From the IMG/VR virus record IMGVR_UViG_3300046007_013272: 20,000 nt of DNA. One strand, 5' to 3'. The notes under the pieces are model-generated. The model saw only the letters and a list, made by a program, of their open reading frames with translations. It made no database searches and was not told where the DNA came from. This document shows, piece after piece, positions 2,057 through 20,000 of the stretch; the stretch's first letter is position 1, and every line of letters starts with the position of its first letter. The DNA comes from an uncultured virus (IMG/VR IMGVR_UViG_3300046007_013272). Lineage: Duplodnaviria; Heunggongvirae; Uroviricota; Caudoviricetes. A program made the translations under genes and the position numbers.

Positions 2057-2118
2057 AAGCGTTTGCCTATACGCTTACAATACATGGCAAATTAAATATT
2101 TATACAAAACATGGCAAA
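2051..2118 (+). promoter_or_regulatory. candidate cis-regulatory RNA pseudoknot upstream of queC
   Basis: Stem AAGCG(T)/(A)CGCTT at 2057-2062 and 2071-2076; loop TTGCC is complementary to GGCAA at 2086-2090 and to GGCAA at 2113-2117, which overlaps the queC start codon. Confidence 0.45.
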
Positions 2119-4136: not shown

Positions 4137-4138
4137 TT

Positions 4139-4921
4139 ATGTCACTAGGAAGAATAGAAGACTACAATAAAATTCTACCAATTGTAGAATTATACACTTG
4201 TGTGCAATCAGAGGGTAGCCGAGCAGGTCGCCCTACTGTTGCAGTCCGCACTACGGGTTGCACCCACCGCTGCTACTTTGGTGAAGGTGGATGGTGTGAT
4301 TCTTGGTACACAAGTATCCACCCTGAAAAAGGTAAATACACTTTCCAGGATATTATTAACATTTACGATCAAAATCCTGAAATTAAGGAGATGATGTTAA
4401 CTGGAGGTTCTCCAACTATGCATCCAAAACTCGTAAACGAACTAACTCACTTTGCAAATGAAAGGCAAATCATCATCACGATCGAAACAGAAGGGTCTGC
4501 TTTCCTTGAAACAGATTATCCTATTGGGCTTATTAGTTTCAGCCCTAAATTTAGTAACAGCGTGCCTGTACTTGGGGGTACTACACCTCTTGGGAGTATT
4601 GTAGATCAAAAATTCATTGATACTCACAATCGACTACGTCTAAACAAAGACGCGATTAAAAAGTCAATGGCTTATCATTCAGACTACCATATGAAGGTAG
4701 TCGTTAACCCAGATGAAATGCCAGAAACTTGGGCTGAAATTCGTTCATTTATGGATGAGCTAGAAGTACCAAAAGATAAAATCTGGATTATGCCTCCTGG
4801 AGATAATCGTCAAGAACTAATTCGTGTTTATCCTATGGTAATTGATTGGTGTACTAAGAATTACTATAACTTTACAGGTCGTGAACATATTATTGCTTTT
4901 GATACTAAACGTGAAGTCTAA
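4139..4921 (+). CDS. queE: 7-carboxy-7-deazaguanine synthase (radical SAM)
   Basis: VQSEG...RTTGCTHRCYFGEGGWCDS, LTGGSP, IETEG, SPK motifs. Confidence 0.92.
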   Translation: MSLGRIEDYNKILPIVELYTCVQSEGSRAGRPTVAVRTTGCTHRCYFGEGGWCDSWYTSIHPEKGKYTFQDIINIYDQNPEIKEMMLTGGSPTMHPKLVNELTHFANERQIIITIETEGSAFLETDYPIGLISFSPKFSNSVPVLGGTTPLGSIVDQKFIDTHNRLRLNKDAIKKSMAYHSDYHMKVVVNPDEMPETWAEIRSFMDELEVPKDKIWIMPPGDNRQELIRVYPMVIDWCTKNYYNFTGREHIIAFDTKREV

Positions 4922-5100
4922 TGCCTTTTGTCATTTTTAAGCATACTAACATCCAAGGAATCCCTCGTACTATCATCGTGAATGATAGTGAGGGTATTCC
5001 TATGGAGTTTGAATCTATGAGTGCTGCTACAAAATTAGCTGAACTATTTCAAGCCAACACCACTTCAGGAAATATTTACGAAGTAAAAAAAATAAAATAA
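4921..5100 (+). CDS. hypothetical protein, 59 aa (not in ORF track)
   Basis: MPFVIFKHTNIQGIPRTIIVNDSEGIPMEFESMSAATKLAELFQANTTSGNIYEVKKIK; TAATG overlaps at both ends. Confidence 0.65.
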   Translation: MPFVIFKHTNIQGIPRTIIVNDSEGIPMEFESMSAATKLAELFQANTTSGNIYEVKKIK

Positions 5101-5252
5101 TGGCTAAAACTAGTGAAAAAATAGTTTGCCATAACTGTTTAGATTCTATAACTTTTAAAAAAGGAGTTAAAGTAGAAAGAAATAACTTTGGGATTCCTCA
5201 TTTTGTTTGGATTTGTAAAAAATGTTACGATGCAGCTCCTACTAGAAAATAA
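5100..5252 (+). CDS. small zinc-ribbon protein, 50 aa (not in ORF track)
   Basis: MAKTSEKIVCHNCLDSITFKKGVKVERNNFGIPHFVWICKKCYDAAPTRK; two CxxC pairs; TAATG-coupled start. Confidence 0.65.
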   Translation: MAKTSEKIVCHNCLDSITFKKGVKVERNNFGIPHFVWICKKCYDAAPTRK

Positions 5253-5403
5253 TAAAGGACATGTTATAGTAGACGATTCTACAGGTAAAATTATTTCTGT
5301 TGTCGTTCATAATGCTATTAAAAATAAACAAGATTTTATTAACTTAGCCAGTTTTACAAATAACCCAGATGGGACTCACTCTGCAACACGTTTTGTAAAA
5401 TGA
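5230..5403 (+). CDS. hypothetical protein, 57 aa
   Basis: ATG 5230 (MQLLLENN) in the frame of track ORF 5188..5403; ATGA overlap with thyA. Confidence 0.5.
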   Translation: MQLLLENNKGHVIVDDSTGKIISVVVHNAIKNKQDFINLASFTNNPDGTHSATRFVK

Positions 5404-6338
5404 ACAATTTAGATAAAACATACCAAGCACTCCTACAAGATATCCTAGATAACGGAGTAAAAAAGGAAGACAGAACAGGTACCGGAACTATTTCAGTATT
5501 TGGTCGTCAGATCAGACATAAAATGTCTGACGGTTATCCTTTGCTTACTACTAAGAAAATGGCATTCAAAACTATGGTAACTGAGTTACTGTGGTTTTTG
5601 AAAGGAAATACCAACATTAAGTATTTGGTTGAGAATGGATGTAACATATGGACTGGGGATGCATACAAACGTTATAAAACTGTATGGGAATACGAATTAG
5701 ATGAACCATTGTCAATGGAAGACTTTGTTCAGCGTATTAAAACAGATCCTATTTTTGCACACGTTTGGGGTGAGTTAGGACCAATTTATGGAGCACAATG
5801 GAGAAAGTGGCCATCATCTGATTTAGCAGGTGGTGATATTGACCAAATTAAAAATCTAATTTATCAACTCAAAACAAACCCAGATTCAAGACGATTAATG
5901 GTTTCAGCTTGGAATGTTGATGATCTAGAACATATGGCTCTACCTCCTTGCCATTACGGATTTCAAGTTTATACAAGACCAACTACACGTGAAGAGAAGA
6001 TTATTAATCCTGGAAAATACAGAGCAATCTCTCTAATGTGGAATCAACGTTCAGTAGATACATTCTTAGGTTTACCATTCAATATTGCCTCTTACGGATT
6101 ATTGCTTGAAATGATTGCTAAAGAAGTAGACATGGTACCTGATGAATTGATTGGTAATTTAGGTGATGTTCATTTGTATTCAAATCACGTTGAACAGGCA
6201 AAAGAACAAATCACTAGAAAACCAATGACTTTACCTACAGTAGAGATAACAGAACTAGATTTGTTGGAAGGTAGTGTATCGGCAGAATTAAAAAACTATA
6301 TTCACCACGATCCAATCAAAGCACCTTTATCTAATTAA
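5400..6338 (+). CDS. thyA: thymidylate synthase
   Basis: DRTGTGT, ELLWFLKG, LGPIYG, SRR, LPPCH, QRSVDTFLGLPFNIASY, HLYSNH. Confidence 0.97.
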   Translation: MNNLDKTYQALLQDILDNGVKKEDRTGTGTISVFGRQIRHKMSDGYPLLTTKKMAFKTMVTELLWFLKGNTNIKYLVENGCNIWTGDAYKRYKTVWEYELDEPLSMEDFVQRIKTDPIFAHVWGELGPIYGAQWRKWPSSDLAGGDIDQIKNLIYQLKTNPDSRRLMVSAWNVDDLEHMALPPCHYGFQVYTRPTTREEKIINPGKYRAISLMWNQRSVDTFLGLPFNIASYGLLLEMIAKEVDMVPDELIGNLGDVHLYSNHVEQAKEQITRKPMTLPTVEITELDLLEGSVSAELKNYIHHDPIKAPLSN

Positions 6339-6340
6339 TT

Positions 6341-6865
6341 ATGATTGAATTATATTCTGCTCACGATATAGACATTAAAACCAAAATTATTGCTCAACAA
6401 ATTTCTCGCGAGCATAAAAATGATGCTACACCTGTTGTAATGGTAGGAGTACTAAATGGAGCATTTATGTTCTATTCAGATCTAGTTCGTAATATGGATA
6501 TTGATGTAGAATGTGATTTTGTTCGAGTCAAATCCTACTCAGGTAAAGAACGAGGCAGTATTCAACTCACTAAAGATATTGAAACATCAGTGCAGGGTAA
6601 GTACGTTTACTTAGTTGATGATATTTTTGATTCAGGAGAAACAATGCGATTTTTAGCTAAATATTTTAATATTAAAGGTGCAAAAGATATCAATGTTGTT
6701 ACTCTAGTAAAACGAGCTAAAAATGAATTTAACCCTATAGGACCTCATAGTCTTATATCTTCATTTAGACATGCTTTTGAATGCGAGGATGAATGGTTGA
6801 TTGGTTATGGAATGGATTCAACAGGGGGTTATAAAAGAAATCTTAAATCTATCTTTGCTCTTTAA
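6341..6865 (+). CDS. hpt: hypoxanthine/guanine phosphoribosyltransferase-like protein
   Basis: VLNGAFMFYSDL, KSY loop, PRPP-binding LVDDIFDSGET, IGYGMD...RNL. Confidence 0.88.
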   Translation: MIELYSAHDIDIKTKIIAQQISREHKNDATPVVMVGVLNGAFMFYSDLVRNMDIDVECDFVRVKSYSGKERGSIQLTKDIETSVQGKYVYLVDDIFDSGETMRFLAKYFNIKGAKDINVVTLVKRAKNEFNPIGPHSLISSFRHAFECEDEWLIGYGMDSTGGYKRNLKSIFAL

Positions 6866-6884
6866 AAAAAAGTTATTATATTAA
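6855..6884 (+). promoter_or_regulatory. possible promoter upstream of folE
   Basis: TTGCTC (6855-6860), 16 nt, TATATTAA (6877-6884); very close to the ATG, implying a nearly leaderless transcript. Confidence 0.3.
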
Positions 6885-6888
6885 TGTT

Positions 6889-7593
6889 ATGGAAAATATA
6901 GAAAATAAACGTCGTAAAAAACACGAAAATATTGAATGCGTTCCTGTTGGTTTCGCAAACGGAGTAGCAGGTGATTTCCCACTTTCAGCTGAACAAAAAG
7001 AAGCAATGATCGAGGAAGCAGCAGAGCACTTTGGACGCTTTCTTACAGCACTAAAATGTGATTGGCAAAATGACCCTAACTCAATGGAGACACCTCGTCG
7101 CGTAGCTAAAGCATACGTAAACGATTTATGGAAAGGCCGTTATACTCCATTTACAGAAATTACTTCATTCCCCTCAGATGGTTATGATGGAATTATCATT
7201 GAACGTAACATTCAACTTACATCAATGTGTTCACACCACCACCAAACAATTCGTGGTGTAGTACATATTGGTTATGTAGCTGGAGATAATGGTCGTGTAA
7301 TTGGTTTATCTAAACTAAACCGAATTGTAGAACATTTTGGTCGTCGAGGTGCTATCCAAGAACAACTTACATCAGCTATTCACCAAGCAGTAAATAAAGT
7401 ATGTGAAGGTAATCGTGGTGTAATTGTAACTGTAGTTGCTACACACAACTGTGTATCTTGTAGAGGTATTAATCACCAAGGTGCAGCAATGGTAACTACC
7501 AAAGCATCAGGTGTGTTCATGGAAAATGATAACCAAGCTCGTAAAGAATTCTTTGATAGTCTTAAAATAAATAATGGTCATGTCTCAATTTAA
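6889..7593 (+). CDS. folE: GTP cyclohydrolase I
   Basis: ETPRRVAK, SMCSHHH, GLSKLNRIV, IQEQLT, HNCVSCRG. Confidence 0.95.
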   Translation: MENIENKRRKKHENIECVPVGFANGVAGDFPLSAEQKEAMIEEAAEHFGRFLTALKCDWQNDPNSMETPRRVAKAYVNDLWKGRYTPFTEITSFPSDGYDGIIIERNIQLTSMCSHHHQTIRGVVHIGYVAGDNGRVIGLSKLNRIVEHFGRRGAIQEQLTSAIHQAVNKVCEGNRGVIVTVVATHNCVSCRGINHQGAAMVTTKASGVFMENDNQARKEFFDSLKINNGHVSI

Positions 7594-8197
7594 AGAATTA
7601 ATAACAATAGAATTAATTAATAGTTTAGGATTACTTCGTTCATTCTCTGATCGAGATGAAGCAACCCGTAACCCTGAAATAGATTGGGCTGAAGAAACTG
7701 CAGGTAGAATTGCAAAATTATTCAATTCCAAATATGTACCATTCGTAAGCGAGGTTGAAGAGTTCAACAGCTTAATGAATAAACCCAACAATTATGCACC
7801 CACAATTCCAGCAAAATCTGAATGGGATTTTGTCTACAACTTCGTTTTGGAAGAACTTGAGGAATATAAACAAGCTTGTGAAAAACAAGACATCGTGGAA
7901 ATTTTGGATGCATTGTGTGACATTGCTTATGTATCCCTTGGGAACGGTACTATGCTTCATGGCCTTAAGAATCAAATTTGGCCCGCTTATATGGAAGTAC
8001 AGGCATCAAATCTTTCAAAAGCTTGTTTTACACAAGAAGAGGCACAAAAGACTGTTGAAACACGTTCACAAGAACAAGGCGAAGGCTGTCACTATGAGCA
8101 GGTTGGTAACAAGTATGTTGTATATCGTACTCGAGACCGTAAAGTAATGAAATCAATTAATTATTTTAAACCTGATCTGAATCAATTCTTTAAATAA
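7580..8197 (+). CDS. MazG-like/PRA-PH family all-alpha NTP pyrophosphohydrolase with N-terminal extension
   Basis: LEELEEY...VEILDALCDIAYV, SNLSK, KVMKS..YFKPDL; start at 7574 or 7580. Confidence 0.8.
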   Translation: MSQFKELITIELINSLGLLRSFSDRDEATRNPEIDWAEETAGRIAKLFNSKYVPFVSEVEEFNSLMNKPNNYAPTIPAKSEWDFVYNFVLEELEEYKQACEKQDIVEILDALCDIAYVSLGNGTMLHGLKNQIWPAYMEVQASNLSKACFTQEEAQKTVETRSQEQGEGCHYEQVGNKYVVYRTRDRKVMKSINYFKPDLNQFFK

Positions 8198-9912
8198 TGA
8201 GTTACAAATCTTGTTTTGCTACTAGATTAGGCAATAACAAATATAAAATCCATTTATGGGAAGATAAGGGTTACACTAATTTTGAGTGGAACTACCCTGC
8301 CTACATCGAATGTGACGAACAAGAAGAAGAATTTGTTGGTTTAAAAAAAGAATCTCTTAGGAAAACTTACAAATGGGATAAAGAAGATAATAAAGTTCAT
8401 TTTAACGATATGAAACCTTACCAAAGGTTTTTAGTTGAAAAGTATGGAACTAATGATGAACCTTCAACAACCCATAAAGAAGTATTTTTTGATATTGAGA
8501 TTGAAATGGGGGGAGCACTTACGGAAGAATATATCAAAAGTGCTCCCAAACCCGTTACTTCAATTGCATGGTGGTACAAACAAGAGGATCAATGGGTAAT
8601 TCTTATTTTAGATAAAAAAGGACAATTAAAGCACACCAAAGCTAAAAATAAAGAAATTGTTCCTTGTGAAAGCGAAGAAAAGCTTTTAGAAACTTTCTTA
8701 ATAAGAATGCGCGAAATTAATCCGGATATACTCATAGGGTATAATAGCGATTATTTCGACATACCCTACCTCTACTACCGCATCTCTAATGTATTCGACC
8801 AAGAAATCGCTAGTGCTATCTCTCCGGTTAACATTGTTTACGACCAAAGTGAGTGGAATAAAGACCAACCCCTACTAATGGCGGGAGTTGAAAATCTTGA
8901 CTACATGAAGCTACACAAAAAATATAGCTTTAAAGATGAACCCTCGTATAAATTAGATGCGTTAGGTAAAAAATACGTTGGTTTAGAAAAAATTGAATAC
9001 GAAGGTAGTTTAGATCGGTTGTTTGAAGAAGATATTCAAACTTTTATTCAATATAACTTTCGAGATGTTGAGATCTTAAAAGCGTTAGACGAAAAATTTC
9101 AATATATTTCGTTAACAAAAAACCTAGCCCACAAAGGTAAGATCAATTATAGTGACGTCTATAAAAACAGCATGATTCACGACGGCGCAATTAGTGCTTA
9201 CCTATTGTCTCAAGGTACTATACCGCCTAGCCGCGATAAAAACCCAATTACTAAGTTGAACTACGCCGGTGGTTACTTATTTTGCCCCCAAGCAGGGTTA
9301 TATAAGTATATGTTTGACGAAGATTTAACTTCTCTATACCCATCTATTATTATGTCTTTAAACATTGGTAAAGAAACGCTAGTAGGGCGTATAATTATAC
9401 CAAATGAGAAAGTTATAGTGGAAGGAAAGGAAATATTTAACTGCCGTTACGGATTAAATGATTTGAAAAAACTAAATCCGGAAACCGAACTTACACTGGA
9501 AAATTCATCCAGAAAACGAACCAAGATAGAGGCTGGGAAACTTATAAATCTAATTGAAGATATGGGATTTGCAGTGTCTGCTAATGGTGTTATGTATAGA
9601 ACAGATTTCGATTCAGTATTGAAAACTATTCTTGCTAAATGGTTTGAAGAAAGGGTTTTGTATAAAAATAAAATGAAGGAATCTTATAAAGCAGGTGATA
9701 AAGAGAAAGGGGCTCAATACCACTTACTACAACATACAATGAAGATCTTGTTGAACTCATTGTATGGTGCTACTGCTTTAGGGGGTTTTCGTTATGGTAA
9801 TGTTATTCTAAGTGAGAGTATTACATTGTCCGGTCAGCGTATTATCCAAGAATCGGCCTTGTTTGCTAACACACATATGAACAAAATAATGCGAGAAGAG
9901 ATAGCCTTATGA
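8197..9912 (+). CDS. family B DNA polymerase, N-terminal part (exonuclease, motifs A and B)
   Basis: ExoI FDIEIE, ExoII GYNSDYFDIPYL, ExoIII YNFRDV, YAGGY, motif A DLTSLYPSII, motif B KILLNSLYG; ends before motif C. Confidence 0.93.
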   Translation: MSYKSCFATRLGNNKYKIHLWEDKGYTNFEWNYPAYIECDEQEEEFVGLKKESLRKTYKWDKEDNKVHFNDMKPYQRFLVEKYGTNDEPSTTHKEVFFDIEIEMGGALTEEYIKSAPKPVTSIAWWYKQEDQWVILILDKKGQLKHTKAKNKEIVPCESEEKLLETFLIRMREINPDILIGYNSDYFDIPYLYYRISNVFDQEIASAISPVNIVYDQSEWNKDQPLLMAGVENLDYMKLHKKYSFKDEPSYKLDALGKKYVGLEKIEYEGSLDRLFEEDIQTFIQYNFRDVEILKALDEKFQYISLTKNLAHKGKINYSDVYKNSMIHDGAISAYLLSQGTIPPSRDKNPITKLNYAGGYLFCPQAGLYKYMFDEDLTSLYPSIIMSLNIGKETLVGRIIIPNEKVIVEGKEIFNCRYGLNDLKKLNPETELTLENSSRKRTKIEAGKLINLIEDMGFAVSANGVMYRTDFDSVLKTILAKWFEERVLYKNKMKESYKAGDKEKGAQYHLLQHTMKILLNSLYGATALGGFRYGNVILSESITLSGQRIIQESALFANTHMNKIMREEIAL

Positions 9913-10157
9913 TATCAAAACAATCAATTCGAAACGGAGTCACTATATTTTGTGATGGAGAACAATTAAATAAAGATCAATTAATTAATCTTACTTTAAA
10001 TTGGTCAGATAAAGAAACCTCTTTATTAAAGAAAATGTTAAAACAAGGAGGTACTTTTAAAATTAAAGGTAAAAAATTTACTATTTTTGCTCTAGAAACC
10101 ATTTATAATTCTAAAGGAGAAGAAGAACAACCTTTAGAAGTATTTGATGAAGAATGA
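9909..10157 (+). CDS. hypothetical protein between the polymerase halves
   Basis: 82-aa ORF with ATGA overlaps on both sides. Confidence 0.7.
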   Translation: MISKQSIRNGVTIFCDGEQLNKDQLINLTLNWSDKETSLLKKMLKQGGTFKIKGKKFTIFALETIYNSKGEEEQPLEVFDEE

Positions 10158-10378
10158 AAACACAAAGAACCCTAGATTTACATGGTGTTAAACATGAGGA
10201 TGTTGAGAAAGAATTAGTTGATTTTTTCTTTTGGCATTCTCAAGAATTTAAAAATACTAAAATTATCACTGGTAAGTCTTCTGCTATGCAGAAAATTGTT
10301 ACTGAATGGCTTGATGGGTATGATTTTAAATATTATATTCCGTCTGATAATTTAGGCGAAATTCAAGTAATAGAATGA
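10154..10378 (+). CDS. stand-alone Smr/MutS2-like domain protein
   Basis: TLDLHGV...KIITGKS...NLGEIQV matches the Smr pattern LDLHG / IITGKG / GxxxV. Confidence 0.7.
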   Translation: MKTQRTLDLHGVKHEDVEKELVDFFFWHSQEFKNTKIITGKSSAMQKIVTEWLDGYDFKYYIPSDNLGEIQVIE

Positions 10379-11304
10379 TTCATTTAGAAGGTACTCCGTG
10401 GTTCATCTGTAAAGAAGATGACGTGAATTTCTGTGCTTATGTAGATACGGATTCTAACTATTATAATGCAGAGCCTTTATTAAAGCATCTTTATCCTAAT
10501 TTTGATGAGATGTCTGAAGCAGAAAGAGATGAAGCATTAGAAAAGATTGCCCTTAAATACCAAGATTTAATTACGGGGTACTACCAACAAATGGCTGAAG
10601 AAGTATTCAATATTAAAGAACACCGATTTGAAATGAAAACTGAAGCAGTTATTCGTTCGGCCTATTTTAGAGCTACTCGTAGATATGCTCAATGGATTAC
10701 TAAAAAAGAAGGTGTAACTAAAGAAGAATTAGATATTAAAGGGTTAGAGTTTATGAAAGCTAATTTCCCTCCAATATTTGGTAAATTCTTTAATTCAATC
10801 TTAGAAAAAGTACTAAAAGGATCTGATCAAAAAGAAATTGATAAATTACTTTTAGATTTTAAAAATTATATTCTTTCTAAAGATTTAGATATTGCTATTT
10901 TAGGTAACCCTACTTCAGTTAAAACTTTAGATAAATACATTGAACGTAAAGCTAAAAAAGGTGAAATGTTCTCTGCTATTAAACAAGGAGCACCTGCTTC
11001 AGTTAAAGCTGCTATTAAATATAATGATTTATTATCATTTTGGGGCTTAGATAAGCAACATTCTCGTATTGTACAAGGTGATAAAGTAAAATGGATTTAC
11101 TTAAAAGATAATCCTTATAAAATAGAGGCACTTGCTTTTCTTGATTTTGATATGCCTGATAAAATAAAAGATCTTTTAAATAAGTACGCAAATAAAAATA
11201 AATCTTTTGAGTCTATTCTTGAAAGTAAATTAGAAGGTTTTTATCATGATTTGGGTTGGAGTTTAAATCTTAACCCTTACATTACAATGTTTTTTAATAT
11301 ATAA
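10375..11304 (+). CDS. family B DNA polymerase, C-terminal part (motif C, thumb)
   Basis: YVDTDS motif C, RRYA, IKGLE. Confidence 0.92.
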   Translation: MIHLEGTPWFICKEDDVNFCAYVDTDSNYYNAEPLLKHLYPNFDEMSEAERDEALEKIALKYQDLITGYYQQMAEEVFNIKEHRFEMKTEAVIRSAYFRATRRYAQWITKKEGVTKEELDIKGLEFMKANFPPIFGKFFNSILEKVLKGSDQKEIDKLLLDFKNYILSKDLDIAILGNPTSVKTLDKYIERKAKKGEMFSAIKQGAPASVKAAIKYNDLLSFWGLDKQHSRIVQGDKVKWIYLKDNPYKIEALAFLDFDMPDKIKDLLNKYANKNKSFESILESKLEGFYHDLGWSLNLNPYITMFFNI

Positions 11305-12130: not shown

Positions 12131-12418
12131 ATGAGTGACAACCAAAAACCGACAGGAATCCGGTACATTAAAGATCCTGCTCTCGAACCTTATTTTATAC
12201 AATTAGATGACTACTGCTATGCAGTACAAGAAATAATTGTAGCCCAAGAAAGTGGTAAAGAATATCAAAACACTTTAGGGTTTTTCTCTGATTTTGGTAG
12301 TTGTTTAAAGGCAATTGCTAAAAGTGAAGTTAAAAAAGGTAGTTACGAAAGTGTAAAAGAATTCATTAAAGAATATAATAAAATAATTGATAGATTAAGT
12401 AAACTAACAGAGTTATGA
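12131..12418 (+). CDS. hypothetical protein, 95 aa
   Basis: ORF after the promoter motif; ATGA overlap with groES. Confidence 0.75.
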   Translation: MSDNQKPTGIRYIKDPALEPYFIQLDDYCYAVQEIIVAQESGKEYQNTLGFFSDFGSCLKAIAKSEVKKGSYESVKEFIKEYNKIIDRLSKLTEL

Positions 12419-12705
12419 AATTAGAAGCCCTATTTAATGCCATTATAGTAAAACCAATTGAATTGGAAGAAACTCTTTATGGTAATATTATTGTACCTGA
12501 TTTGGGTAGTGAAAGAAATAAAACAGCAGAAGTTATTTCTATTGGCCCTGGTTTTGAATCAGGTTATGGAAAATTTGTTAAAACTATCCTCGAAGTAGGA
12601 GATATTGTTGTATTACCTGCATTAGGATTTACCAAATTTGAATATCAAGGTGAAGAATACTGGATTGGTAAAGAAAATGATATTTTAGCAAAAATTAATA
12701 AATAA
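12415..12705 (+). CDS. groES: co-chaperonin GroES
   Basis: Mobile loop GNIIVPD, AEVISIGPG, LEVGDIV, ENDILAKI; adjacent to groEL. Confidence 0.9.
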   Translation: MKLEALFNAIIVKPIELEETLYGNIIVPDLGSERNKTAEVISIGPGFESGYGKFVKTILEVGDIVVLPALGFTKFEYQGEEYWIGKENDILAKINK

Positions 12706-14361
<1,656 letters not shown>

Positions 14362-16113: not shown

Positions 16114-16791
16114 ATGGATTTAAAAGGTTTTGACTGGGGTTGGATGGCTGAAGGAGATGCTTTTCACCAAAAGGCTATTACATTTGAAATTTTTGAACAA
16201 AATTTATACGAAAAGTTTTTTGAAGTTGAAGAAGGTGATATTGTATTAGATGTTGGTTCTAGCATTGGTCCTTTTACTTATTCTATACTTCATAAAAATC
16301 CATCTAAAGTATTTTGTATAGAACCATCAGTAATTGAACACCCTACTTTAGAAAAAAATACACAAGGAGGTCCTGTTACTATTATTAAAAAAGCTATAAC
16401 ACCTACTGATGGTGAATTAGCTACTACTGAAATTTTTGATCCAACAAAATCTTCAACATTAGAGGGTATTTCATTTAAAACTTTACTAAAAGAAAATAAT
16501 ATTAATAAGATAGATTTTCTTAAAACAGATTGTGAAGGAGGAGAATATAGTATTTTTAATTTTGAAAATCTTTGTTGGTTAAAAGATAATCTAGGAGTAG
16601 CAGTAGGTGAATGGCATCTATCTACCCCAGAACTAAAACAACAATTTAGAGTATTTAGGGATGTTTTCCTTAGGCTTTTTCCAAATCATGCTGTATATTC
16701 TGTAGATGGGATAGATATAAAATGGGATTTGTGGAATGAGCATTTTATAGAATACTATAATGAAGTTATAATTTACATAAACAATAAATAA
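16114..16791 (+). CDS. FkbM-family SAM-dependent methyltransferase
   Basis: VLDVGSSIG, IEP, IDFLKTDCEGGE, GEWH. Confidence 0.88.
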   Translation: MDLKGFDWGWMAEGDAFHQKAITFEIFEQNLYEKFFEVEEGDIVLDVGSSIGPFTYSILHKNPSKVFCIEPSVIEHPTLEKNTQGGPVTIIKKAITPTDGELATTEIFDPTKSSTLEGISFKTLLKENNINKIDFLKTDCEGGEYSIFNFENLCWLKDNLGVAVGEWHLSTPELKQQFRVFRDVFLRLFPNHAVYSVDGIDIKWDLWNEHFIEYYNEVIIYINNK

Positions 16792-16792
16792 A

Positions 16793-17155
16793 ATGGAAGA
16801 ACAAGCAGGTTACGGTAATTCAAAAGCAGTTACAGATTTTCAAAAAACATACCCTGAATTAGCAGCTGAATTTAAGCAAATTCAAGAGGAACAATATGAA
16901 TTGTTCGCTGCTAAAATGATGGATTACGGTCTAGGTAATATTGCTTTGGGCTCAACACTCGAAGACCAAGATGATATAAACCTTTCAATCACAGGCATCT
17001 GGCTTCGCTGTAATGATAAAATCAATCGCTTAAAGAATATTCTTAAGCGTAATGGTAAAAATTACGTAGCAGGAGAAGCCGCAATTGATAGTTTTATTGA
17101 CATTTCAAACTATGGAATCATTGCCCAGCTAGTTATGAGAAATAAGTGGAAATGA
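16793..17155 (+). CDS. nucleotide-modification-associated domain 1 (Nmad1/DUF1599-like) protein
   Basis: FAAKMMDYG...RCNDKINRL...SFIDISNYGII pattern. Confidence 0.7.
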   Translation: MEEQAGYGNSKAVTDFQKTYPELAAEFKQIQEEQYELFAAKMMDYGLGNIALGSTLEDQDDINLSITGIWLRCNDKINRLKNILKRNGKNYVAGEAAIDSFIDISNYGIIAQLVMRNKWK

Positions 17156-18519
17156 TAAAGTTAATTATTTTTGATTTAGATGGAGTATTAGTTGAAGCTA
17201 AAAATCTTCATTATGAAGCCCTAAATAAAGCTTTAGGGAATGAATATTCTATTAGTTGGAAAGAACATTTAAGTAAATATGATGGTTTAAAAACCAATCA
17301 AAAACTTGAAATGTTAACTAAGGAAAAAGGTTTACCAGTTGAATTACATTCTAAAGTTTGGGAAGATAAACAAAAATATACTTTAGAAGAACTTCGTGCC
17401 CTTAAACCGAATGAAGAATTTCAATTAATGATGTCATCTTTATCTGAAAGCGGTTATAAACTAGCAGTTTGTTCTAATAGCATTCGAAAAACAGTATTAA
17501 CTGTACTTTCTAAGTTAGGGATAATGGAATTTATGGATTTAGTTATTTCTAACGAAGACGTTAAAAATAGCAAACCACACCCTGAAATGTATTGGAAGGC
17601 TATTTCTATGATGAGTTGCCTCCCAGAAGAAACACTTATTGTAGAAGATTCACCTTATGGATTATTAGCAGCTTCAAGAAGTAAATCACATATTTTAAGA
17701 GTAAAAAATCCAAAAGAAGTTACTTATACAAATATTTTTAATAAATTAACAGAAATAGAAAAAGGATACGTCATGAAATCACCTGCTTGGAGAGATAATA
17801 AATTAAATGTAATTATACCAATGGCTGGAGCAGGTTCTAGATTTGCTCAAGCGGGTTATACATTCCCTAAACCTTTAATTGATGTTAAAGGTAAACCTAT
17901 GATTCAAGTTGTAGTTGAAATGCTTAACATTAAAGCTAATTTTATCTATGCAGTACAAAAAGAACATAGAGAAAAATACAACTTAGATACTCTACTCAAT
18001 TTACTTACTCCAGGATGTAAAATTATAGAAGTAGATGGTGTAACCGAAGGTGCTGCTTGTACTGCTTTATTAGCTAAAGAATATATTGATAATGATTCTC
18101 CACTTTTGTTTGCTAATTCAGATCAACATATTATTTGGGATTCAAATGAATTCTTTTATAAAATGAATGAAACTAGTGTTGATGGAGGTATTTTATGTTT
18201 TAAAGGCACTCATCCTAAATGGTCATTTGCTAAAGTAGATGAAAATAATAGAGTAACCGAAGTAGCAGAAAAAAACCCAATCTCAGATAATGCAACAGTT
18301 GGAATGTATTACTGGAAACAAGGTTCAGACTTTGTAAAATATGCTGAACAAATGATTTCTAAAAATATTAGGGTAAATAATGAATTTTATGTTTGTCCTG
18401 TATATAATGAAGCTATTCAAGATGATAAACATATTTCATGTTTTATGATTGATAAAGATGATATGTGGGGATTAGGTACCCCTGAAGAGTTAACGTATTA
18501 TCTTGAAAATTTTAAATAA
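17152..18519 (+). CDS. fusion of HAD phosphatase and sugar-phosphate nucleotidyltransferase (BcbE-like/NTP_transferase)
   Basis: N-terminal FDLDGVL, CSNS, KPHP, VEDSPYG; C-terminal IPMAGAGSRF...PKPLI, NSDQ, GLGTPEEL; likely ATG 17152 (ATGA overlap). Confidence 0.88.
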   Translation: MIKLIIFDLDGVLVEAKNLHYEALNKALGNEYSISWKEHLSKYDGLKTNQKLEMLTKEKGLPVELHSKVWEDKQKYTLEELRALKPNEEFQLMMSSLSESGYKLAVCSNSIRKTVLTVLSKLGIMEFMDLVISNEDVKNSKPHPEMYWKAISMMSCLPEETLIVEDSPYGLLAASRSKSHILRVKNPKEVTYTNIFNKLTEIEKGYVMKSPAWRDNKLNVIIPMAGAGSRFAQAGYTFPKPLIDVKGKPMIQVVVEMLNIKANFIYAVQKEHREKYNLDTLLNLLTPGCKIIEVDGVTEGAACTALLAKEYIDNDSPLLFANSDQHIIWDSNEFFYKMNETSVDGGILCFKGTHPKWSFAKVDENNRVTEVAEKNPISDNATVGMYYWKQGSDFVKYAEQMISKNIRVNNEFYVCPVYNEAIQDDKHISCFMIDKDDMWGLGTPEELTYYLENFK

Positions 18520-18839
18520 TGGACGTTTTAAAAGGTAAAAATATGGTAGGTGGTTGGTTTGTAGGTGACTTCGAACCAACTGCTTATTCTACAAAAGAAT
18601 TTGAAGTTAGTTATAAGTTTCACCCAAAAGGAGAAATTTGGGATAACCACTACCACAAAGTAGCTACTGAAATAAATTATATTATTCGTGGGAAGATGAA
18701 GTTAAGCGGGACTTACTTAAAAAAGGGTGATATATTTATTCTACACCCGGGTGAAGTAGCAGTTCCTGAATTTTTAACTAATTGTGAACTAATAGTTGTA
18801 AAAACCCCTAGTGTAAAAGGAGATAAGTATATAGTATAA
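18519..18839 (+). CDS. cupin-domain protein
   Basis: HYHKVATEINYIIRGKM (HxHxxxxE) and KGDIFILHPGE. Confidence 0.82.
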   Translation: MDVLKGKNMVGGWFVGDFEPTAYSTKEFEVSYKFHPKGEIWDNHYHKVATEINYIIRGKMKLSGTYLKKGDIFILHPGEVAVPEFLTNCELIVVKTPSVKGDKYIV

Positions 18840-18842: not shown

Positions 18843-20000
18843 ATGATTAAAATTTTTAGAACAGAAGAAGAAATAAATAAAGAAAAATACTTTATAGTTA
18901 CTTATTATTTAGAAGCAAAAACTTCACTTCGAGAAGCAGCTTGGAATTTAGCTATAGGTCAAAGTATAGGTAATCCTAATAATAGAAGTATATGGGAAAC
19001 AGAAGAAATGTTTGAAAACCATAGTTGTTTTATTTTAGCTAATCAAGAATATCTTAAATCTACTAAAGCAGGAAATGTAAAAATAGCATTTCCTTTAGCT
19101 AATATTAATCTTGAAGAAGATGGTATTTCTCAAATTTTATGCCATATAGCAGGTGGTCAAGTTGATATCTTAGAAATTCAAAAATGCCAAGTACTTGATA
19201 TCCAACTCCCAGAAAAAGTAGAGGAACAATTTGCTTTAAAACCTGCCTACGGAATTGATGGTTGGAGAAAATTTAATAAGGTTTATGACAAACCATTTTT
19301 AGGAGGTATTATTAAACCTAAAGTAGGGATGAGTCCTGAAGTACTACTAGAAGCAGTAAAAGAAATGGTTTATGGGGGAGTTAATTTTATTAAAGAAGAT
19401 GAATTATTAGCTAACCCAGAACATTGTCCTCTTGAAGTAAGAGTACCTTTGATTGTATCTTGGCTTAAAGAAAACGCTCCAGATGTTATTTATTGTTTTT
19501 GTATAAATGGAGATAGCCCATATGCTTTAGAAAGAGCTAAATTTGTAGCAGATAATGGTGGAAATGGTATTCACATTAATGTTTGGAGTGGATTAGGAAT
19601 ATACAGAGCAATTAGAAAACAAAATCCTAATTTATGGATTCACTTCCAAAAAAGCGGTGATAAATTCTTTACAGATAGAAGAGCCCCATTCCATATTTAC
19701 TGGCCTGTAATCTGTAAAATAGCAGGATGGTCAGGTGCTGATTCAATTCATGCTGGTATGATTGGTGGTTACATGAATCAAGATGAAGAAGAATTAAAAG
19801 ATGCTTTAAAAGTACTTTGGCATTACAATATTGTCCCTGCTTTAAGTTGCGGTATGCACCCAGGATTAGTTCAATTTATTAACCAGTCACTTCATAGTAA
19901 TGATTGGTTAGCTAATGTAGGAGGAGCATTACATGGTCATCCTATGGGAACTTTAGCAGGTGGTTTAGCTATGAAACAAGCAATTAATCACGAAACAGAT
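18843..20000 (+). CDS. RuBisCO-like protein (form IV-like), 3'-truncated by the window, absent from ORF track
   Basis: Hand translation of 386 stop-free codons: GGIIKPKVG, GGVNFIKEDE, GADSIHAG, PALSCGMHPG, NVGGALHGHP. Confidence 0.92.
   Translation, partial: MIKIFRTEEEINKEKYFIVTYYLEAKTSLREAAWNLAIGQSIGNPNNRSIWETEEMFENHSCFILANQEYLKSTKAGNVKIAFPLANINLEEDGISQILCHIAGGQVDILEIQKCQVLDIQLPEKVEEQFALKPAYGIDGWRKFNKVYDKPFLGGIIKPKVGMSPEVLLEAVKEMVYGGVNFIKEDELLANPEHCPLEVRVPLIVSWLKENAPDVIYCFCINGDSPYALERAKFVADNGGNGIHINVWSGLGIYRAIRKQNPNLWIHFQKSGDKFFTDRRAPFHIYWPVICKIAGWSGADSIHAGMIGGYMNQDEEELKDALKVLWHYNIVPALSCGMHPGLVQFINQSLHSNDWLANVGGALHGHPMGTLAGGLAMKQAINHETD

What the first reader, a model, noticed from the sequence alone, without database searches (positions are those of the whole stretch)
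18843..20000. Phage-encoded RuBisCO-like protein with a remodelled active site, missed by the ORF track
Seen: a frame open from ATG 18843 to the window end (386 codons) has RuBisCO large-subunit motifs in order: IIKPKVG (K158, K160), GGVNFIKEDE (K184, D186, E187), IHFQKSG, GADSIHAGMIGGY, PALSCGMHPG, VGGALHGHP. Known: these match spinach K175/K177, carbamylated K201 with D203/E204 (same 26-residue K-to-K spacing), H327, S379 and G403/G404. By eye alignment, carboxylation residues are replaced: E60 to G, N123 to G, H294 to Q, R295 to K, K334 to Y, G380 to C. Inference: not a CO2-fixing enzyme but an Mg/carbamate enolase, isomerase or decarboxylase for a phosphorylated sugar-like substrate. Phage-borne RuBisCO-like genes are uncommon and I know of no assigned function for this residue pattern.
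Basis: partly seen in the sequence, partly recalled or inferred. Interest (0 to 1): 0.85.

Follow-up and report, generated by a model that had tools for sequence, protein, structure and literature searches.

The report
Phage RuBisCO-like enzyme, sugar-activation cassette
A T4-like lake-water phage carries an intact relative of the CO2-fixing enzyme RuBisCO that lacks the CO2-handling residues and sits in one operon with a sugar-activating enzyme and a small metal enzyme, so it most likely reshapes a sugar phosphate for an unusual activated sugar; such phage genes have been known since 2019, but their function has never been tested.

Summary
The frame from 18843 is open to the window end and continues to 411 aa in the 170-kb phage assembly. 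It is not a carboxylase.

It belongs to a deep, well-separated clade with its own invariant active-site signature. The clade is not rare: at least 291 IMG/VR contigs carry it, and so do SAR11, Legionella, CPR and DPANN genomes. Phage RuBisCO-like proteins (RLPs) were published in 2019 (Jaffe et al.) with no function assigned. This scan has also reported the same cassette on other DNA at least eight times.

What I tested here:
- The RLP travels with a sugar-1-phosphate nucleotidyltransferase in 77 of 80 viral loci, a 107-aa cupin in 72 of 80, and a 146-aa GDPD-like mini phosphodiesterase in 59 of 80.
- The nucleotidyltransferase occurs fused to the RLP, the cupin, a HAD domain or the mini phosphodiesterase in other genomes.
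- In cellular genomes the set lies in surface-glycan loci, including the start of SAR11 hypervariable region 2.

Best reading, by inference only: a Mg/carbamate enolase-type isomerase or epimerase feeding a nucleotide-sugar pathway. Substrate and product are unknown.

The parts
16114..16791 (+). FkbM-family methyltransferase (225 aa), first gene of the tightly packed same-strand run. It is an accessory gene, not a core one: FkbM-type genes lie near the RLP in 15 of 128 loci.
   Evidence: Pfam Methyltransf_21 2.8e-07. NCBIfam fkbM_fam 51.3 bits against a cut-off of 37.7. Locus count.
16793..17155 (+). DUF1599 protein ('nucleotide modification associated domain 1'), 120 aa. Its stop overlaps the next gene's probable start (ATGA at 17152-17155). 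It is not conserved with the cassette.
   Evidence: Pfam PF07659 1.1e-05. Sequence junction read. The DUF1599 HMM hit only 6 ORFs among 139 loci.
17146..18519 (+). Fusion of a HAD (beta-phosphoglucomutase-family) domain, residues 1-205, with a sugar-1-phosphate nucleotidyltransferase-like domain, residues about 219-456. The probable true start is ATG 17152.
   Evidence: Pfam HAD_2 1.3e-32 and NTP_transferase 1.7e-09. PDB 4evw NDP-sugar pyrophosphorylase 2.3e-21. NCBIfam best hit is beta-PGM family hydrolase at 95.8 bits (cut-off 153.35), and rmlA_long at 43.7 bits. A nucleotidyltransferase homologue lies within 4 kb of the RLP in 77/80 viral and 44/48 genome loci.
18519..18839 (+). 106-aa single-domain cupin with the canonical metal motif G38-x5-H44-x-H46-x4-E51-x6-G58. 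Its start overlaps the previous stop (TAATG).
   Evidence: AlphaFold model pLDDT 96.8. Foldseek finds small cupins, including Thermococcus mini phosphomannose isomerases 7zvm/7zvy at TM 0.64-0.70 and 25% identity. H44 and E51 are invariant and H46 is kept in >=90% of 39 homologues. Atlas Cupin_2 clusters score 0.96. It lies within 4 kb of the RLP in 72/80 viral loci. Junction read.
18843..20000 (+). RuBisCO-like protein, residues 1-386 of 411. The gene continues 78 bases beyond the window end in the assembly. A 3-base gap separates it from the cupin stop.

Best explanation
The gene encodes a catalytically competent but non-carboxylating RuBisCO-like protein of the phage/CPR/DPANN/SAR11 'form IV-like' clade.

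It most likely uses the retained carbamylated-lysine/Mg2+ site (K184, D186, E187) with K158 and K160 to enolise a phosphorylated keto-sugar. It would then isomerise or epimerise that sugar, without adding CO2 and without C-C cleavage.

The product would enter a short nucleotide-sugar pathway encoded by its constant neighbours:
- the small metal cupin, a probable aldose-ketose isomerase or epimerase;
- in this phage, a HAD beta-phosphoglucomutase-like domain, acting as mutase or phosphatase;
- a sugar-1-phosphate nucleotidyltransferase that makes the NDP-sugar.

The 146-aa GDPD-like mini phosphodiesterase and the methyltransferases downstream would act on a phosphodiester or on the sugar. The activated, probably O-methylated, sugar would be used by glycosyltransferases for a surface glycan, either of the infected cell or of the virion.

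Shown here: family membership, loss of the carboxylase residues, clade separation, gene linkage and the fusions. Inferred: catalysis, the order of steps and the fate of the product. Unknown: the substrate and the sugar made.
For: (1) Not a carboxylase.
- E60, N123, H294 and K334 are replaced by G, G, Q and Y in 28/28, 27/28, 28/28 and 28/28 family rows.
- All NCBIfam RuBisCO/RLP models score far below their cut-offs; the best is rubisco_III at 157.7 bits against 497.45.

(2) Probably still an enzyme.
- K175, K177, K201, D203, E204, S379, G381 and G403 are invariant in 28/28 rows, and H327 is kept in 25/28.
- The two co-existing alleles of this gene differ at 25 codons, 21 of them synonymous. 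Both alleles stand in one lake metagenome.
- Family-specific invariants lie at active-site positions: Q40, S41, N44, P45, H244, N246, Q269, D300, Y310.

(3) Distal anion site partly kept. R295 is K or R in 27/28 rows and H327 is kept. In MtnW, whose substrate is a monophosphate, these positions are P and L in 3/3 rows.

(4) Linkage within 4 kb of the RLP.
- Nucleotidyltransferase: 77/80 viral and 44/48 genome loci.
- Cupin: 72/80 and 13/48.
- 146-aa protein: 59/80 and 22/48.
- The order N-C-R-P occurs in 34/80 viral loci. All 9 of 9 first loci, on different phage backbones, keep N-C-R.

(5) Fusions.
- RLP-nucleotidyltransferase: P0123, 667 aa, 54% identity.
- Nucleotidyltransferase-cupin: 8 loci.
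- HAD-nucleotidyltransferase: 4 distinct contigs.
- Nucleotidyltransferase-146-aa protein: 1 locus.

(6) Partner identities.
- The nucleotidyltransferase is nearest to sugar-1-P nucleotidylyltransferases: 4evw at 2.3e-21, and rmlA_long, Arch_glmU, HddC, AglF and MurU, all below their cut-offs.
- The 146-aa protein carries the HRG..EN..ExD..HD pattern, invariant in 35 sequences. Its profile hits GDPD 7e0v at 2.5e-4.

(7) Cellular context is glycan synthesis.
- GT9, CTP_transf_3, WavE, GT1, GT2, GT25, Bac_transf, RmlC, LicD, PMT_2 and an ABC exporter lie nearby.
- In a complete Pelagibacter chromosome the set lies 1.3 kb beyond the 23S rRNA gene. That is the start of HVR2, which Grote et al. 2012 describe as rich in glycosyltransferases and methyltransferases (passage).

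(8) In this phage the same-strand run continues with two Methyltransf_24 genes, the 146-aa gene, DegT aminotransferases, GNAT, a PglD-like acetyltransferase and a GT4-type glycosyltransferase.

(9) Accessory genes near the cassette elsewhere: SDR epimerase/dehydratase in 26/128 loci, FkbM in 15, GT2 in 7, WavE in 12, DegT in 6, TylF in 4.

(10) Cultured Synechococcus myophages carry the cupin (3 records) and the 146-aa protein (17 records). They lie in islands with phosphoheptose isomerase, kinase, HAD, nucleotidyltransferase, epimerases and glycosyltransferases, but without an RLP. This suggests the RLP takes the place of another sugar-phosphate isomerase.
Against: - No activity, substrate or product is shown. 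All function is by linkage and analogy.
- The cupin fold match is generic. DMSP lyases, KdgF, quercetinases and uncharacterised cupins score as well as the phosphomannose isomerases.
- The cupin was found in only 13/48 genome loci. SAR11 loci are P-N-R-N and Legionella loci R-N. So the cupin is not obligatory, or my HMM misses divergent ones.
- The GDPD assignment rests on about 52 N-terminal residues. 0 of 35 members reach any GDPD Pfam hit, and the atlas lead is weak at 0.86 and 0.80.
- In more distant cellular loci the nucleotidyltransferases hit only MobA-like NTP_transf_3, or nothing. A CDP-alcohol-phosphate product, with LicD next door in Legionella, is as possible as an NDP-aldose.
- No kinase or dedicated mutase is universal.
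- DUF1599 ('nucleotide modification associated') is translationally coupled to the cassette here, and a 7-deazaguanine pathway lies in the same window.
- RNA evidence is only short contigs, 90-97% alike, in RNA libraries. These may contain DNA.
- The trees hold no form I rows and no named DeepYkr, Photo or OiaT references. Labels come from NCBIfam best hits.
Confidence: 0.6

Rival explanations
1. The activated sugar made by the cassette is used to hypermodify the phage DNA, as glycosylation of a modified base, and not for a surface or virion glycan. The RLP chemistry would be as in the best explanation; only the destination differs.
For: - In this phage the cassette is translationally coupled to DUF1599, 'nucleotide modification associated domain 1'.
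- The same window encodes FolE, QueD, QueE and QueC for 7-deazaguanine.
- The gene run sits among replication genes.
- T4-like phages are known to glycosylate DNA (recalled).
Against: - DUF1599 matched only 6 ORFs among 139 loci, so it is not part of the conserved set.
- The same cassette in bacteria lies among GT9, WavE, Bac_transf, GT25, LicD and an ABC exporter, and in SAR11 at HVR2.
- The ThyA-like gene scores as an ordinary thymidylate synthase (322.5 bits Pfam; phrog_160). I therefore saw no sign of a hydroxymethyl-pyrimidine acceptor, though I did not search the whole genome for one.
- DegT, PglD and GT4 neighbours are typical of glycan loci.
Confidence: 0.12
2. The RLP works in a salvage pathway for methylthio- or deoxy-pentose phosphates. 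The model is MtnW with MtnX (a HAD) and MtnD (a cupin), or the DeepYkr RLP with its cupin methylsulfurylase. It would detoxify by-products of SAM enzymes during infection.
For: - RLP + cupin (+ HAD) is the enzyme set of the two known RLP salvage routes (PMC5893883, passages).
- The phage encodes a radical-SAM QueE and several SAM methyltransferases, which produce such by-products (the link is my inference).
Against: - No MtnA, MtnB, MtnK, MtnP or MtnN-like gene was seen among the neighbours scanned.
- The universal partner is a nucleotidyltransferase, which has no role in those pathways, and it is fused to the RLP, cupin and HAD.
- The family is separated from the MtnW and MtnW-like rows with SH-aLRT 99.
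- MtnW models score 120.9 bits against 409 and 91 against 513.6.
- H294 is kept in all MtnW and MtnW-like rows (14/14) but is Q in 28/28 family rows. N123 is K in MtnW and G here.
- HAD is present in only 2/80 viral loci.
Confidence: 0.08
3. It is a true, if divergent, CO2-fixing or RuBP-consuming RuBisCO acting as an auxiliary metabolic gene.
For: - Full-length large-subunit fold.
- K175, K177, K201, D203 and E204 are kept.
- The JGI source name for close homologues is 'ribulose-bisphosphate carboxylase large chain'.
Against: - K334, N123, E60, T65, W66, H294 and H298 are all replaced, invariantly across the family.
- Scores are 157.7 bits against a cut-off of 497.45 for form III and 98.5 against 489 for form II.
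- No phosphoribulokinase, R15P isomerase or AMP phosphorylase lies next to it.
Confidence: 0.01
4. The RLP is a non-catalytic scaffold or regulatory subunit for the nucleotidyltransferase or cupin.
For: Fusion to the nucleotidyltransferase and constant adjacency would also fit an assembly role.
Against: - The metal/carbamate triad, both lysines, the phosphate-binding glycines and a set of family-specific pocket residues are invariant across sequences only 37-54% identical.
- A binding test could not be run, because the complex predictor was not available.
Confidence: 0.03

Closest known systems
Phage and Beckwithbacteria 'form IV-like' RuBisCO-related proteins (Jaffe, Castelle, Dupont & Banfield 2019, Mol Biol Evol; PMC6389311, passages read)
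   Same: - Encoded by large myovirus-type phages taken from IMG/VR.
- Highly divergent from other RLPs.
- Key residues unlike the known form IV proteins.
- Grouping with a Beckwithbacteria sequence. Here a Beckwithbacteria MAG locus (L023) holds a 51%-identical homologue in the order N-P-C-R.
- Separate from all other forms in trees.
   Different: That paper left function open. The passages I read do not mention the nucleotidyltransferase/cupin/phosphodiesterase neighbours, the fusions or the SAR11 HVR2 copy. I did not compare with their sequences; their supplements were not opened.
MtnW / YkrW RLP (2,3-diketo-5-methylthiopentyl-1-phosphate enolase) with MtnX (HAD) and MtnD (cupin)
   Same: - RuBisCO fold.
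- K175, K201, D203, E204 and the P1 glycines are kept.
- Enolisation without carboxylation.
- Works beside a HAD enzyme and a cupin (PMC5893883).
   Different: - Below both MtnW cut-offs and on the other side of a 99-supported branch.
- MtnW keeps H294 and has lost K177, R295 and H327. This family has Q294 and keeps K177, K/R295 and H327.
- The partners here centre on a nucleotidyltransferase.
DeepYkr RLP (5-methylthioribulose-1-P 1,3-isomerase) with its cupin methylsulfurylase, MTA-isoprenoid shunt
   Same: An RLP gene lies next to a small cupin gene. The RLP moves a carbonyl along a pentulose phosphate (PMC5893883). This is the kind of chemistry proposed here.
   Different: - No named DeepYkr sequence was in my trees. 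The MtnW-like rows that may include it do not group with this family.
- No MtnP or MtnA context.
- The cupins were not compared.
Type II phosphomannose isomerase / GDP-mannose pyrophosphorylase (ManC/AlgA-type) and the NDP-heptose pathway (GmhA, kinase, GmhB, HddC)
   Same: - Nucleotidyltransferase followed by a cupin, as separate genes or fused in 8 loci.
- A HAD step before nucleotidyl transfer.
- Weak similarity of the nucleotidyltransferase to HddC and to a 6-deoxy-heptose pathway protein, 5xhw.
- Cyanophage islands combine the same cupin or 146-aa protein with phosphoheptose isomerase, kinase, HAD and nucleotidyltransferase.
   Different: - The ManC architecture and the heptose pathway are recalled, not tested.
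- No known pathway of this type contains an RLP or a mini GDPD-like protein.
- All NCBIfam scores are far below their cut-offs.
OiaX / apiose-pathway RLPs (3-oxo-isoapionate-4-phosphate decarboxylase)
   Same: An RLP acting on a phosphorylated keto sugar-acid. OiaX is among the NCBIfam hits at 115.3 bits.
   Different: - The cut-off is 700 bits.
- OiaX-like rows keep H294 (14/14) and K334 (13/14) and have lost K177 (0/14).
- They form a separate clade.

Membership tests
RuBisCO large-subunit superfamily | N-terminal alpha/beta domain plus C-terminal TIM-barrel catalytic domain | tested here: met
   Pfam PF02788 (27.6 bits, cut-off 20.7) and PF00016 (107.6 bits, cut-off 30.1). The model matches form III and RLP structures at TM 0.76-0.85.
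RuBisCO large-subunit superfamily | Carbamylatable lysine with Asp/Glu metal ligands (K201, D203, E204) and K175 | tested here: met
   K184, D186, E187 and K158 are invariant in 28/28 family rows. Carbamylation itself is not testable here.
Bona fide carboxylase (forms I, II, III) | Complete set of catalytic residues, including E60, N123, H294 and K334 | tested here: not met
   G39, G105, Q269 and Y310. The 6 form III rows and 1 form II row have E, N, H and K.
Bona fide carboxylase (forms I, II, III) | Score above the NCBIfam curated cut-offs | tested here: not met
   TIGR03326 157.7 bits against 497.45. NF003252 139.8 against 438. NF010002 98.5 against 489.
Form IV MtnW/YkrW enolase | Score above the equivalog cut-off, and placement with MtnW in a tree | tested here: not met
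   NF007095 120.9 bits against 409. TIGR03332 91 against 513.6. Separated from MtnW and the MtnW-like rows by a branch with SH-aLRT 99.
OiaX decarboxylase RLP | Score above the equivalog cut-off | tested here: not met
   NF042437 115.3 bits against 700.
Phage/Beckwithbacteria 'IV-like' RLP clade (Jaffe 2019) | Phage-borne (myovirus), divergent from all named forms, grouping with Beckwithbacteria sequences | tested here: met
   T4-type capsid and portal on the contig. The family is monophyletic against 78 other superfamily rows and, under a C20 mixture model, against 38 other rows. A Beckwithbacteria MAG homologue is 51% identical.
Phage/Beckwithbacteria 'IV-like' RLP clade (Jaffe 2019) | Direct clustering with the published sequences | not tested
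   Their sequences and supplements were not opened. The identity of the two clades is inferred from the description.
GDPD (glycerophosphodiester phosphodiesterase) family, for the 146-aa neighbour | Catalytic His-Arg, metal-binding Glu/Asp and second His in the N-terminal half (motif recalled) | tested here: met
   H6, R7, E18, N19, E35, D37, H49 and D50 are invariant in 35 sequences. They align to the same residues of GDPD 7e0v at E 2.5e-4.
GDPD (glycerophosphodiester phosphodiesterase) family, for the 146-aa neighbour | Full-length GDPD domain passing the Pfam threshold | tested here: not met
   0 of 35 members give any GDPD Pfam hit at E<=0.1. The protein is about 145 aa against 255 aa for 7e0v.
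Cupin superfamily, for the 106-aa neighbour | Double-stranded beta-helix fold with the HxH...E metal motif | tested here: met
   Model pLDDT 96.8. 264 PDB cupin-type matches at E<=0.001. H44 and E51 are invariant and H46 is kept in >=90%.

The most novel reading that the evidence does not exclude
This RLP clade supplies a previously undescribed step in nucleotide-sugar biosynthesis. It would be a RuBisCO-fold, carbamate/Mg enolase that epimerises or isomerises a ketose phosphate. Because the distal anion site is partly kept, the substrate could be a bisphosphate or a nucleotide-linked ketose. The step would replace the usual SIS-type isomerase or SDR chemistry.

The cassette would be shared between phages and the surface-glycan hypervariable islands of their most abundant hosts (SAR11 HVR2, CPR, DPANN). 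Phage and host would then draw on one toolkit to repaint, or to copy, the cell surface in their arms race.
Probability: 0.3. Interest if true: 0.8.

Novelty: new member of a known kind. Interest (0 to 1): 0.5.

Why it matters
RuBisCO-like proteins are a classic case of one fold taking on new chemistry, and only a handful of RLP functions are known: methionine and MTA salvage, and apiose and acid-sugar catabolism. This clade is very abundant in aquatic metagenomes, with 2234 protein clusters and at least 291 viral contigs. It also occurs in SAR11, Legionella, CPR and DPANN genomes, yet it has no assigned reaction.

If it does make an activated rare sugar, that would be the first biosynthetic, glycan-directed role for the RuBisCO fold. 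It would also name a component of the surface-variation islands thought to govern phage-host recognition in the ocean's commonest bacteria.

For annotation, it warns that 'ribulose-bisphosphate carboxylase large chain' labels on viral contigs should not be read as viral carbon fixation.

Tried and rejected
- **Complex prediction (RLP + cupin).** This was meant to test whether the cupin is a bound small partner. The queue was full, and the tool was declared unavailable. Nothing was folded, so nothing can be said on binding.
- **tblastn of the RLP against 50,697 phage records.** No match at E<=1e-5. PHROGs gave no family for the RLP.
- **Pfam on the 146-aa protein.** Nothing, neither for single sequences nor across 35 members.
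- **The 260-aa neighbour family (45/128 loci).** No Pfam hit for the representative and no PDB sequence relative at E<=1 worth naming. Some members gave weak DUF7796/WavE hits.
- **RNA evidence.** Three RNA-library runs hold short contigs 90-97% alike on parts of the HAD-nucleotidyltransferase and RLP genes. These are contigs, DNA carry-over cannot be excluded and cover is partial, so I do not count this as expression. Bins without cover in these runs mean nothing.
- **Pelagimyophage paper (PMC7029224).** Zero occurrences of rubisco, ribulose, GroEL, chaperonin, queuosine or methyltransferase, so it was no help.
- **Tabita et al. 2007 'IV-GOS' clade (recalled).** It could be this family, but the paper is not held, and one full-text search found only a review that names the clade. 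Untested.
- **Literature searches for a published function or cassette.** Searches found none. This covers only the held open-access library.
- **Considered and dropped: a chimeric or cellular contig.** The RLP lies inside a same-strand run of phage replication genes, on a contig with a T4 capsid and portal. An identical 17-kb stretch stands on a second IMG/VR contig, L003.
Full report
**What is there.**
The frame from ATG 18843 is open to the last base of the window: 386 codons with no stop. It appears in an ORF list only when frames that run off the end are allowed. The window is G000:C1:48509-68508 (minus strand) of a 170,105-bp IMG/VR virus record that CheckV rates 100% complete. There the gene continues to 411 aa (L001:1423-2658:-).

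The window differs from the held assembly at 28 bases, all between 19456 and 19895 and therefore all inside this gene. These fall in 25 codons, of which 21 changes are synonymous and 4 are not: V205A, N263C, K319R and H351E. One lake-water DNA run holds both versions side by side; for example, at 19456 the other letter has depth 36.1 of 52.9. This is natural microdiversity under purifying selection, not an artefact.

**Family.**
- Pfam gives RuBisCO_large (9.3e-31) and RuBisCO_large_N (3.8e-06), both above their cut-offs.
- All six NCBIfam RuBisCO/RLP models match but fall far below their curated cut-offs: form III 157.7 against 497.45, MtnW 120.9 against 409 and 91 against 513.6, OiaX 115.3 against 700, form II 98.5 against 489.
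- 98 distinct PDB sequences match at E<=1e-3. The best are the Burkholderia RLP 3nwr (1.6e-33) and form III enzymes.
- An AlphaFold model built on 25 family sequences has pLDDT 92.0 and pTM 0.90. It superposes on form III RuBisCO (TM 0.84-0.85) and on RLPs (3nwr, 1tel, 2qyg, MtnW) at 21-27% identity.

**Active site.**
I aligned the protein with 27 family relatives, 6 form III rows and 1 form II row that pass NCBIfam cut-offs, and 3 MtnW rows (labels). I read the canonical positions off a form III sequence that carries the textbook motifs. A second alignment of all 106 rows gave the same picture. Spinach numbers are recalled.

- Kept, and invariant in 28/28 family rows: K175, K177, K201, D203, E204, S379, G381, G403. 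H327 is kept in 25/28 and G404 in 26/28.
- Replaced, and just as invariant: E60->G (28/28), T65->N (27/28), W66->P (27/28), N123->G (27/28), H294->Q (28/28), K334->Y (28/28), G380->C (26/28).
- R295 is K or R in 27/28 rows. H298 is mostly D.
- The 20-site signature shares at most 10 positions with any of the 78 non-family rows.

Three points bear on mechanism:
- The residues that handle CO2 addition, hydration and cleavage are gone, so carboxylation is excluded as far as sequence can exclude it.
- The metal/carbamate site, both lysines and the P1 phosphate cradle are intact, which fits enolisation of a phosphorylated carbonyl compound.
- Unlike MtnW, which has lost K177, R295 and H327, this family keeps a cationic distal site. 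The substrate may therefore carry a second anionic group. This last point is my inference.

**Place in the superfamily.**
A search of 1.84 billion cluster representatives gave 946 hits at E<=1e-3. About twenty full-length clusters stood at 37-54% identity, followed by a drop to about 30-35%.

I built a tree from:
- the query;
- 24 family rows;
- 3 very low-scoring rows;
- 75 other full-length rows labelled by their best NCBIfam model;
- 3 fusion proteins trimmed to their RuBisCO part.

I left out fragments under about 340 aa and the long fusions P0225, P0263, P0265 and P0267. No form I row and no named DeepYkr, Photo or OiaT reference was available.

- With LG+G4, the 28 family rows form one side of a branch with SH-aLRT 99.
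- With the site-heterogeneous LG+C20+F+G4 model, on 56 rows, the 18 family rows again do so at 99.
- The family does not nest in form III, MtnW or MtnW-like, or OiaX-like groups.

This matches the description by Jaffe et al. 2019 of about 80 phage sequences 'related to Form IV'. They report some from Myoviridae, grouping with Beckwithbacteria as an outgroup to other RLPs, with function unclear (PMC6389311, passages). I also found a Beckwithbacteria MAG homologue at 51% identity. The GOS paper of 2007 had already noted new RuBisCO-homologue branches in ocean metagenomes (PMC1821046, passages).

**It is a phage gene, and a common one.**
- The window holds a split family-B polymerase, clamp-loader subunits, GroES/GroEL, thymidylate synthase and a 7-deazaguanine set, all on one strand.
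- The contig also encodes a T4-type major capsid protein (201.8 bits) and portal (235.6 bits).
- Cultured relatives are distant: PolB is at most 32.5% identical (Microcystis phage Mel-JY01), and GroEL is 57.2% identical to Flavobacterium phage vB_FspM_immuto.
- Near-identical DNA stands in 12 lake-water runs and 2 marine-plankton runs.
- The protein has 2234 matching clusters in the 5.8-billion-protein set. The best 120 are 78-94% identical and 407-417 aa long.
- No cultured phage record holds it, and PHROGs has no family for it.

**The neighbours are the main evidence for function.**
In the first nine viral loci, on at least four different genomic backbones, the order nucleotidyltransferase - ~107-aa protein - RLP is kept in 9 of 9. 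I then built HMMs from session loci and counted genes within 4 kb of the RLP.

| Set | Nucleotidyltransferase | Cupin | 146-aa protein | Methyltransf_24 of the window's type | HAD fusion |
|---|---|---|---|---|---|
| 80 viral loci | 77 | 72 | 59 | 20 | 2 |
| 68 viral loci with at least 3 kb on both sides | 66 | 62 | 50 | - | - |
| 48 of 50 genome loci in which an RLP ORF was called | 44 | 13 | 22 | - | - |

- The order N-C-R-P occurs in 34 of the 80 viral loci.
- SAR11 loci are typically P-N-R-N without a cupin, and Legionella loci are R-N.
- The low cupin count in genomes may partly reflect the viral bias of my HMM.

Fusions tie the set together:
- RLP-nucleotidyltransferase: P0123, 667 aa, 54% identical.
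- Nucleotidyltransferase-cupin in 8 loci.
- HAD-nucleotidyltransferase on 4 distinct contigs, including this phage and a Pelagibacter chromosome.
- Nucleotidyltransferase-146-aa protein in 1 locus.

In the window the genes are packed with an ATGA overlap (DUF1599 / HAD-nucleotidyltransferase), a TAATG overlap (nucleotidyltransferase / cupin) and a 3-base gap (cupin / RLP).

**What the partners are.**
- *Nucleotidyltransferase half.* It is nearest to NDP-sugar pyrophosphorylase 4evw (2.3e-21). It also matches the sugar-1-phosphate nucleotidylyltransferase models rmlA_long, Arch_glmU, HddC, AglF and MurU, all far below their cut-offs.
- *HAD half.* It is nearest to beta-phosphoglucomutase-family hydrolases (95.8 bits against 153.35), so it could be a mutase or a phosphatase.
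- *106-aa protein.* It is a cupin: the model has pLDDT 96.8, and H44 and E51 are invariant with H46 nearly so. Its structural neighbours are generic small cupins, among them the minimal archaeal phosphomannose isomerases 7zvm/7zvy.
- *146-aa protein.* It carries, invariant in 35 sequences, the H-R-G ... E-N ... E-x-D ... H-D pattern of glycerophosphodiester phosphodiesterases (the motif is recalled). Its profile hits GDPD 7e0v at 2.5e-4, but only over the first ~52 residues. No member passes a Pfam GDPD model. It is thus a miniature GDPD-like protein, a label that earlier notes of this scan also used.

**Context in cells.**
The family is also present in 50 loci of GTDB representative genomes. 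Many are SAGs or MAGs that could be phage DNA. Others are complete or long chromosomes: Pelagibacter, Verrucomicrobiae, Turneriella, three Legionella species, Nonomuraea, Elusimicrobia and Sphingobacteriales.

Their neighbours are surface-glycan genes: GT9 heptosyltransferase, CTP_transf_3, WavE, GT1, GT2, GT25, Bac_transf, RmlC, LicD, a PMT_2/ArnT-like transferase, an ABC exporter and radical-SAM enzymes.

In the complete Pelagibacter chromosome the P-N-R set lies 1.3 kb beyond the 23S rRNA gene of the 16S-tRNA-tRNA-23S cassette. That is where Grote et al. 2012 place hypervariable region 2, rich in glycosyltransferases and methyltransferases (PMC3448164, passage).

In this phage the same-strand run continues beyond the window with:
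- two Methyltransf_24 genes;
- the 146-aa gene;
- DegT aminotransferases;
- a GNAT;
- a PglD-like acetyltransferase;
- an 818-aa FkbM-domain protein;
- further on, a GT4-type glycosyltransferase.

Across 128 loci the commonest further neighbours are:
- a 260-aa protein of unknown family, in 45 loci;
- an SDR epimerase/dehydratase, in 26;
- FkbM methyltransferases, in 15;
- WavE-like proteins, in 12;
- GT2, in 7;
- DegT, in 6;
- carbamoyltransferase, in 5.

**Cultured comparators.**
Synechococcus myophages carry the cupin (3 records) and the 146-aa protein (17 records). One record annotates the 146-aa protein as glycerophosphoryl diester phosphodiesterase. These genes lie in islands with phosphoheptose isomerase, a kinase, HAD phosphatases, nucleotidyltransferases, epimerase/dehydratases and glycosyltransferases, but without an RLP. 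This suggests, by non-orthologous displacement, that the RLP supplies a sugar-phosphate isomerisation step. It is a hint, not a test.

**Reading.**
The most economical account is a nucleotide-sugar pathway with these steps:
- The RLP enolises a ketose phosphate and returns an isomer or epimer.
- The cupin performs a further isomerisation.
- A HAD enzyme, where present, moves or removes a phosphate.
- The nucleotidyltransferase activates the sugar-1-phosphate.
- Methyltransferases and glycosyltransferases finish and use it.

I put this at 0.6. What the mini phosphodiesterase does is open. Because some distant cellular partners look MobA/IspD-like and sit beside LicD, a CDP-linked sugar-alcohol or ketose phosphate is a live variant.

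Rivals:
- The sugar goes to DNA rather than to a glycan (0.12). The DUF1599 coupling and the deazaguanine genes argue for it; the cellular glycan context argues against.
- A salvage role like MtnW or DeepYkr, whose pathways also pair an RLP with a cupin and a HAD (PMC5893883) (0.08). The universal, fused nucleotidyltransferase, the tree and the residue pattern argue against.
- A scaffold role (0.03).
- True carboxylation (0.01).

**Novelty.**
Phage RLPs of this kind are in print since 2019, without a function. My full-text searches found no paper that links an RLP to a nucleotidyltransferase/cupin cassette, but they cover only the held open-access library. This scan has already reported the same cassette on other genomes at least eight times, with the same reading. 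Those notes are not independent evidence.

What I tested myself:
- linkage counts;
- the fusions;
- the GDPD-like motif;
- the SAR11 HVR2 position;
- the cyanophage RLP-less islands;
- the allele pair;
- the residue tables.

This window therefore adds a new, complete, lake-water member and some context, not a new kind.

**Not done.**
The complex predictor was unavailable, so whether the cupin or the nucleotidyltransferase binds the RLP is untested. RNA-library contigs lie on parts of the genes but do not establish transcription.

Noticed in passing
window 2111-7593: A 7-deazaguanine precursor set lies on one strand: QueC (2111-2989), QueD/PTPS (3672-4136), radical-SAM QueE-like (4139-4921) and GTP cyclohydrolase I (6889-7593). 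It is interleaved with thioredoxin, thymidylate synthase, a phosphoribosyltransferase and a MazG-like pyrophosphohydrolase. I did not look for a DpdA-type transglycosylase. The 278-aa ORF at 1220-2056 (phrog_19058, unknown function) is unexplained.
   Followed up: no
window 8197-11304: The family-B DNA polymerase is split into two ORFs (8197-9912 and 10375-11304). Two small ORFs separate them, one with an Smr domain (10154-10378).
   Followed up: no
window 12415-14361: The phage encodes a GroES/GroEL pair. The nearest cultured GroEL is in Flavobacterium phage vB_FspM_immuto, at 57.2% identity. A Saprospirales MAG contig (L012) carries an 80%-identical RLP cassette. Both are weak hints of a Bacteroidota host.
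   Followed up: partly
window 19456-19895: The window and the held assembly differ at 28 bases, confined to this 440-base stretch of the RLP gene. 21 of the 25 changed codons are synonymous, and both alleles co-occur in one lake metagenome. The sharp clustering suggests a recombined patch between co-existing strains.
   Followed up: partly
P0204, P0154, P0163, P0265 (protein hits): Other RuBisCO-superfamily fusions outside this clade: TIR domain + RLP (P0204, 583 aa), IF-2B-type isomerase + form III-like RuBisCO (P0154, P0163), and RuBisCO + APH-type kinase (P0265, 1265 aa). The TIR fusion hints at an RLP acting on an NAD-derived sugar phosphate in a defence setting.
   Followed up: no
L142 (MT408532.1), L143 (NC_047838.1), L144 (NC_031922.1): Cultured Synechococcus myophages carry homologues of the cupin and the 146-aa GDPD-like protein. 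They lie in glycan islands with phosphoheptose isomerase, aldolase, kinase, HAD phosphatases, nucleotidyltransferases and epimerases, but no RLP. These are lab-tractable relatives of the cassette.
   Followed up: partly
L089:7669-8451 and 50 relatives (e.g. L004:9695-10477): A ~260-aa protein family with no Pfam or PDB sequence match follows the cassette in 45 of 128 loci. It has the invariant residues G9, R140, D142 and D172. Some members give weak DUF7796/WavE hits, so it is possibly the transferase of the pathway. It is absent from this window's phage.
   Followed up: partly
L085:1272-2897, L082:4111-4944: In 5 viral loci each, a DHBP synthase (RibB, acts on ribulose-5-P), an APH-like kinase and a transaldolase-like protein lie just upstream of the cassette. 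This may point to a pentose-phosphate-derived precursor.
   Followed up: no
L018 (NZ_CP159823.1) 743-9957: A complete Pelagibacter chromosome holds the P-N-R set, a second HAD-nucleotidyltransferase fusion like the phage's, a GT9, a 2-hydroxyacid dehydrogenase and a CTP_transf_3 gene. They lie directly beside the 23S rRNA gene, at the edge of HVR2.
   Followed up: partly
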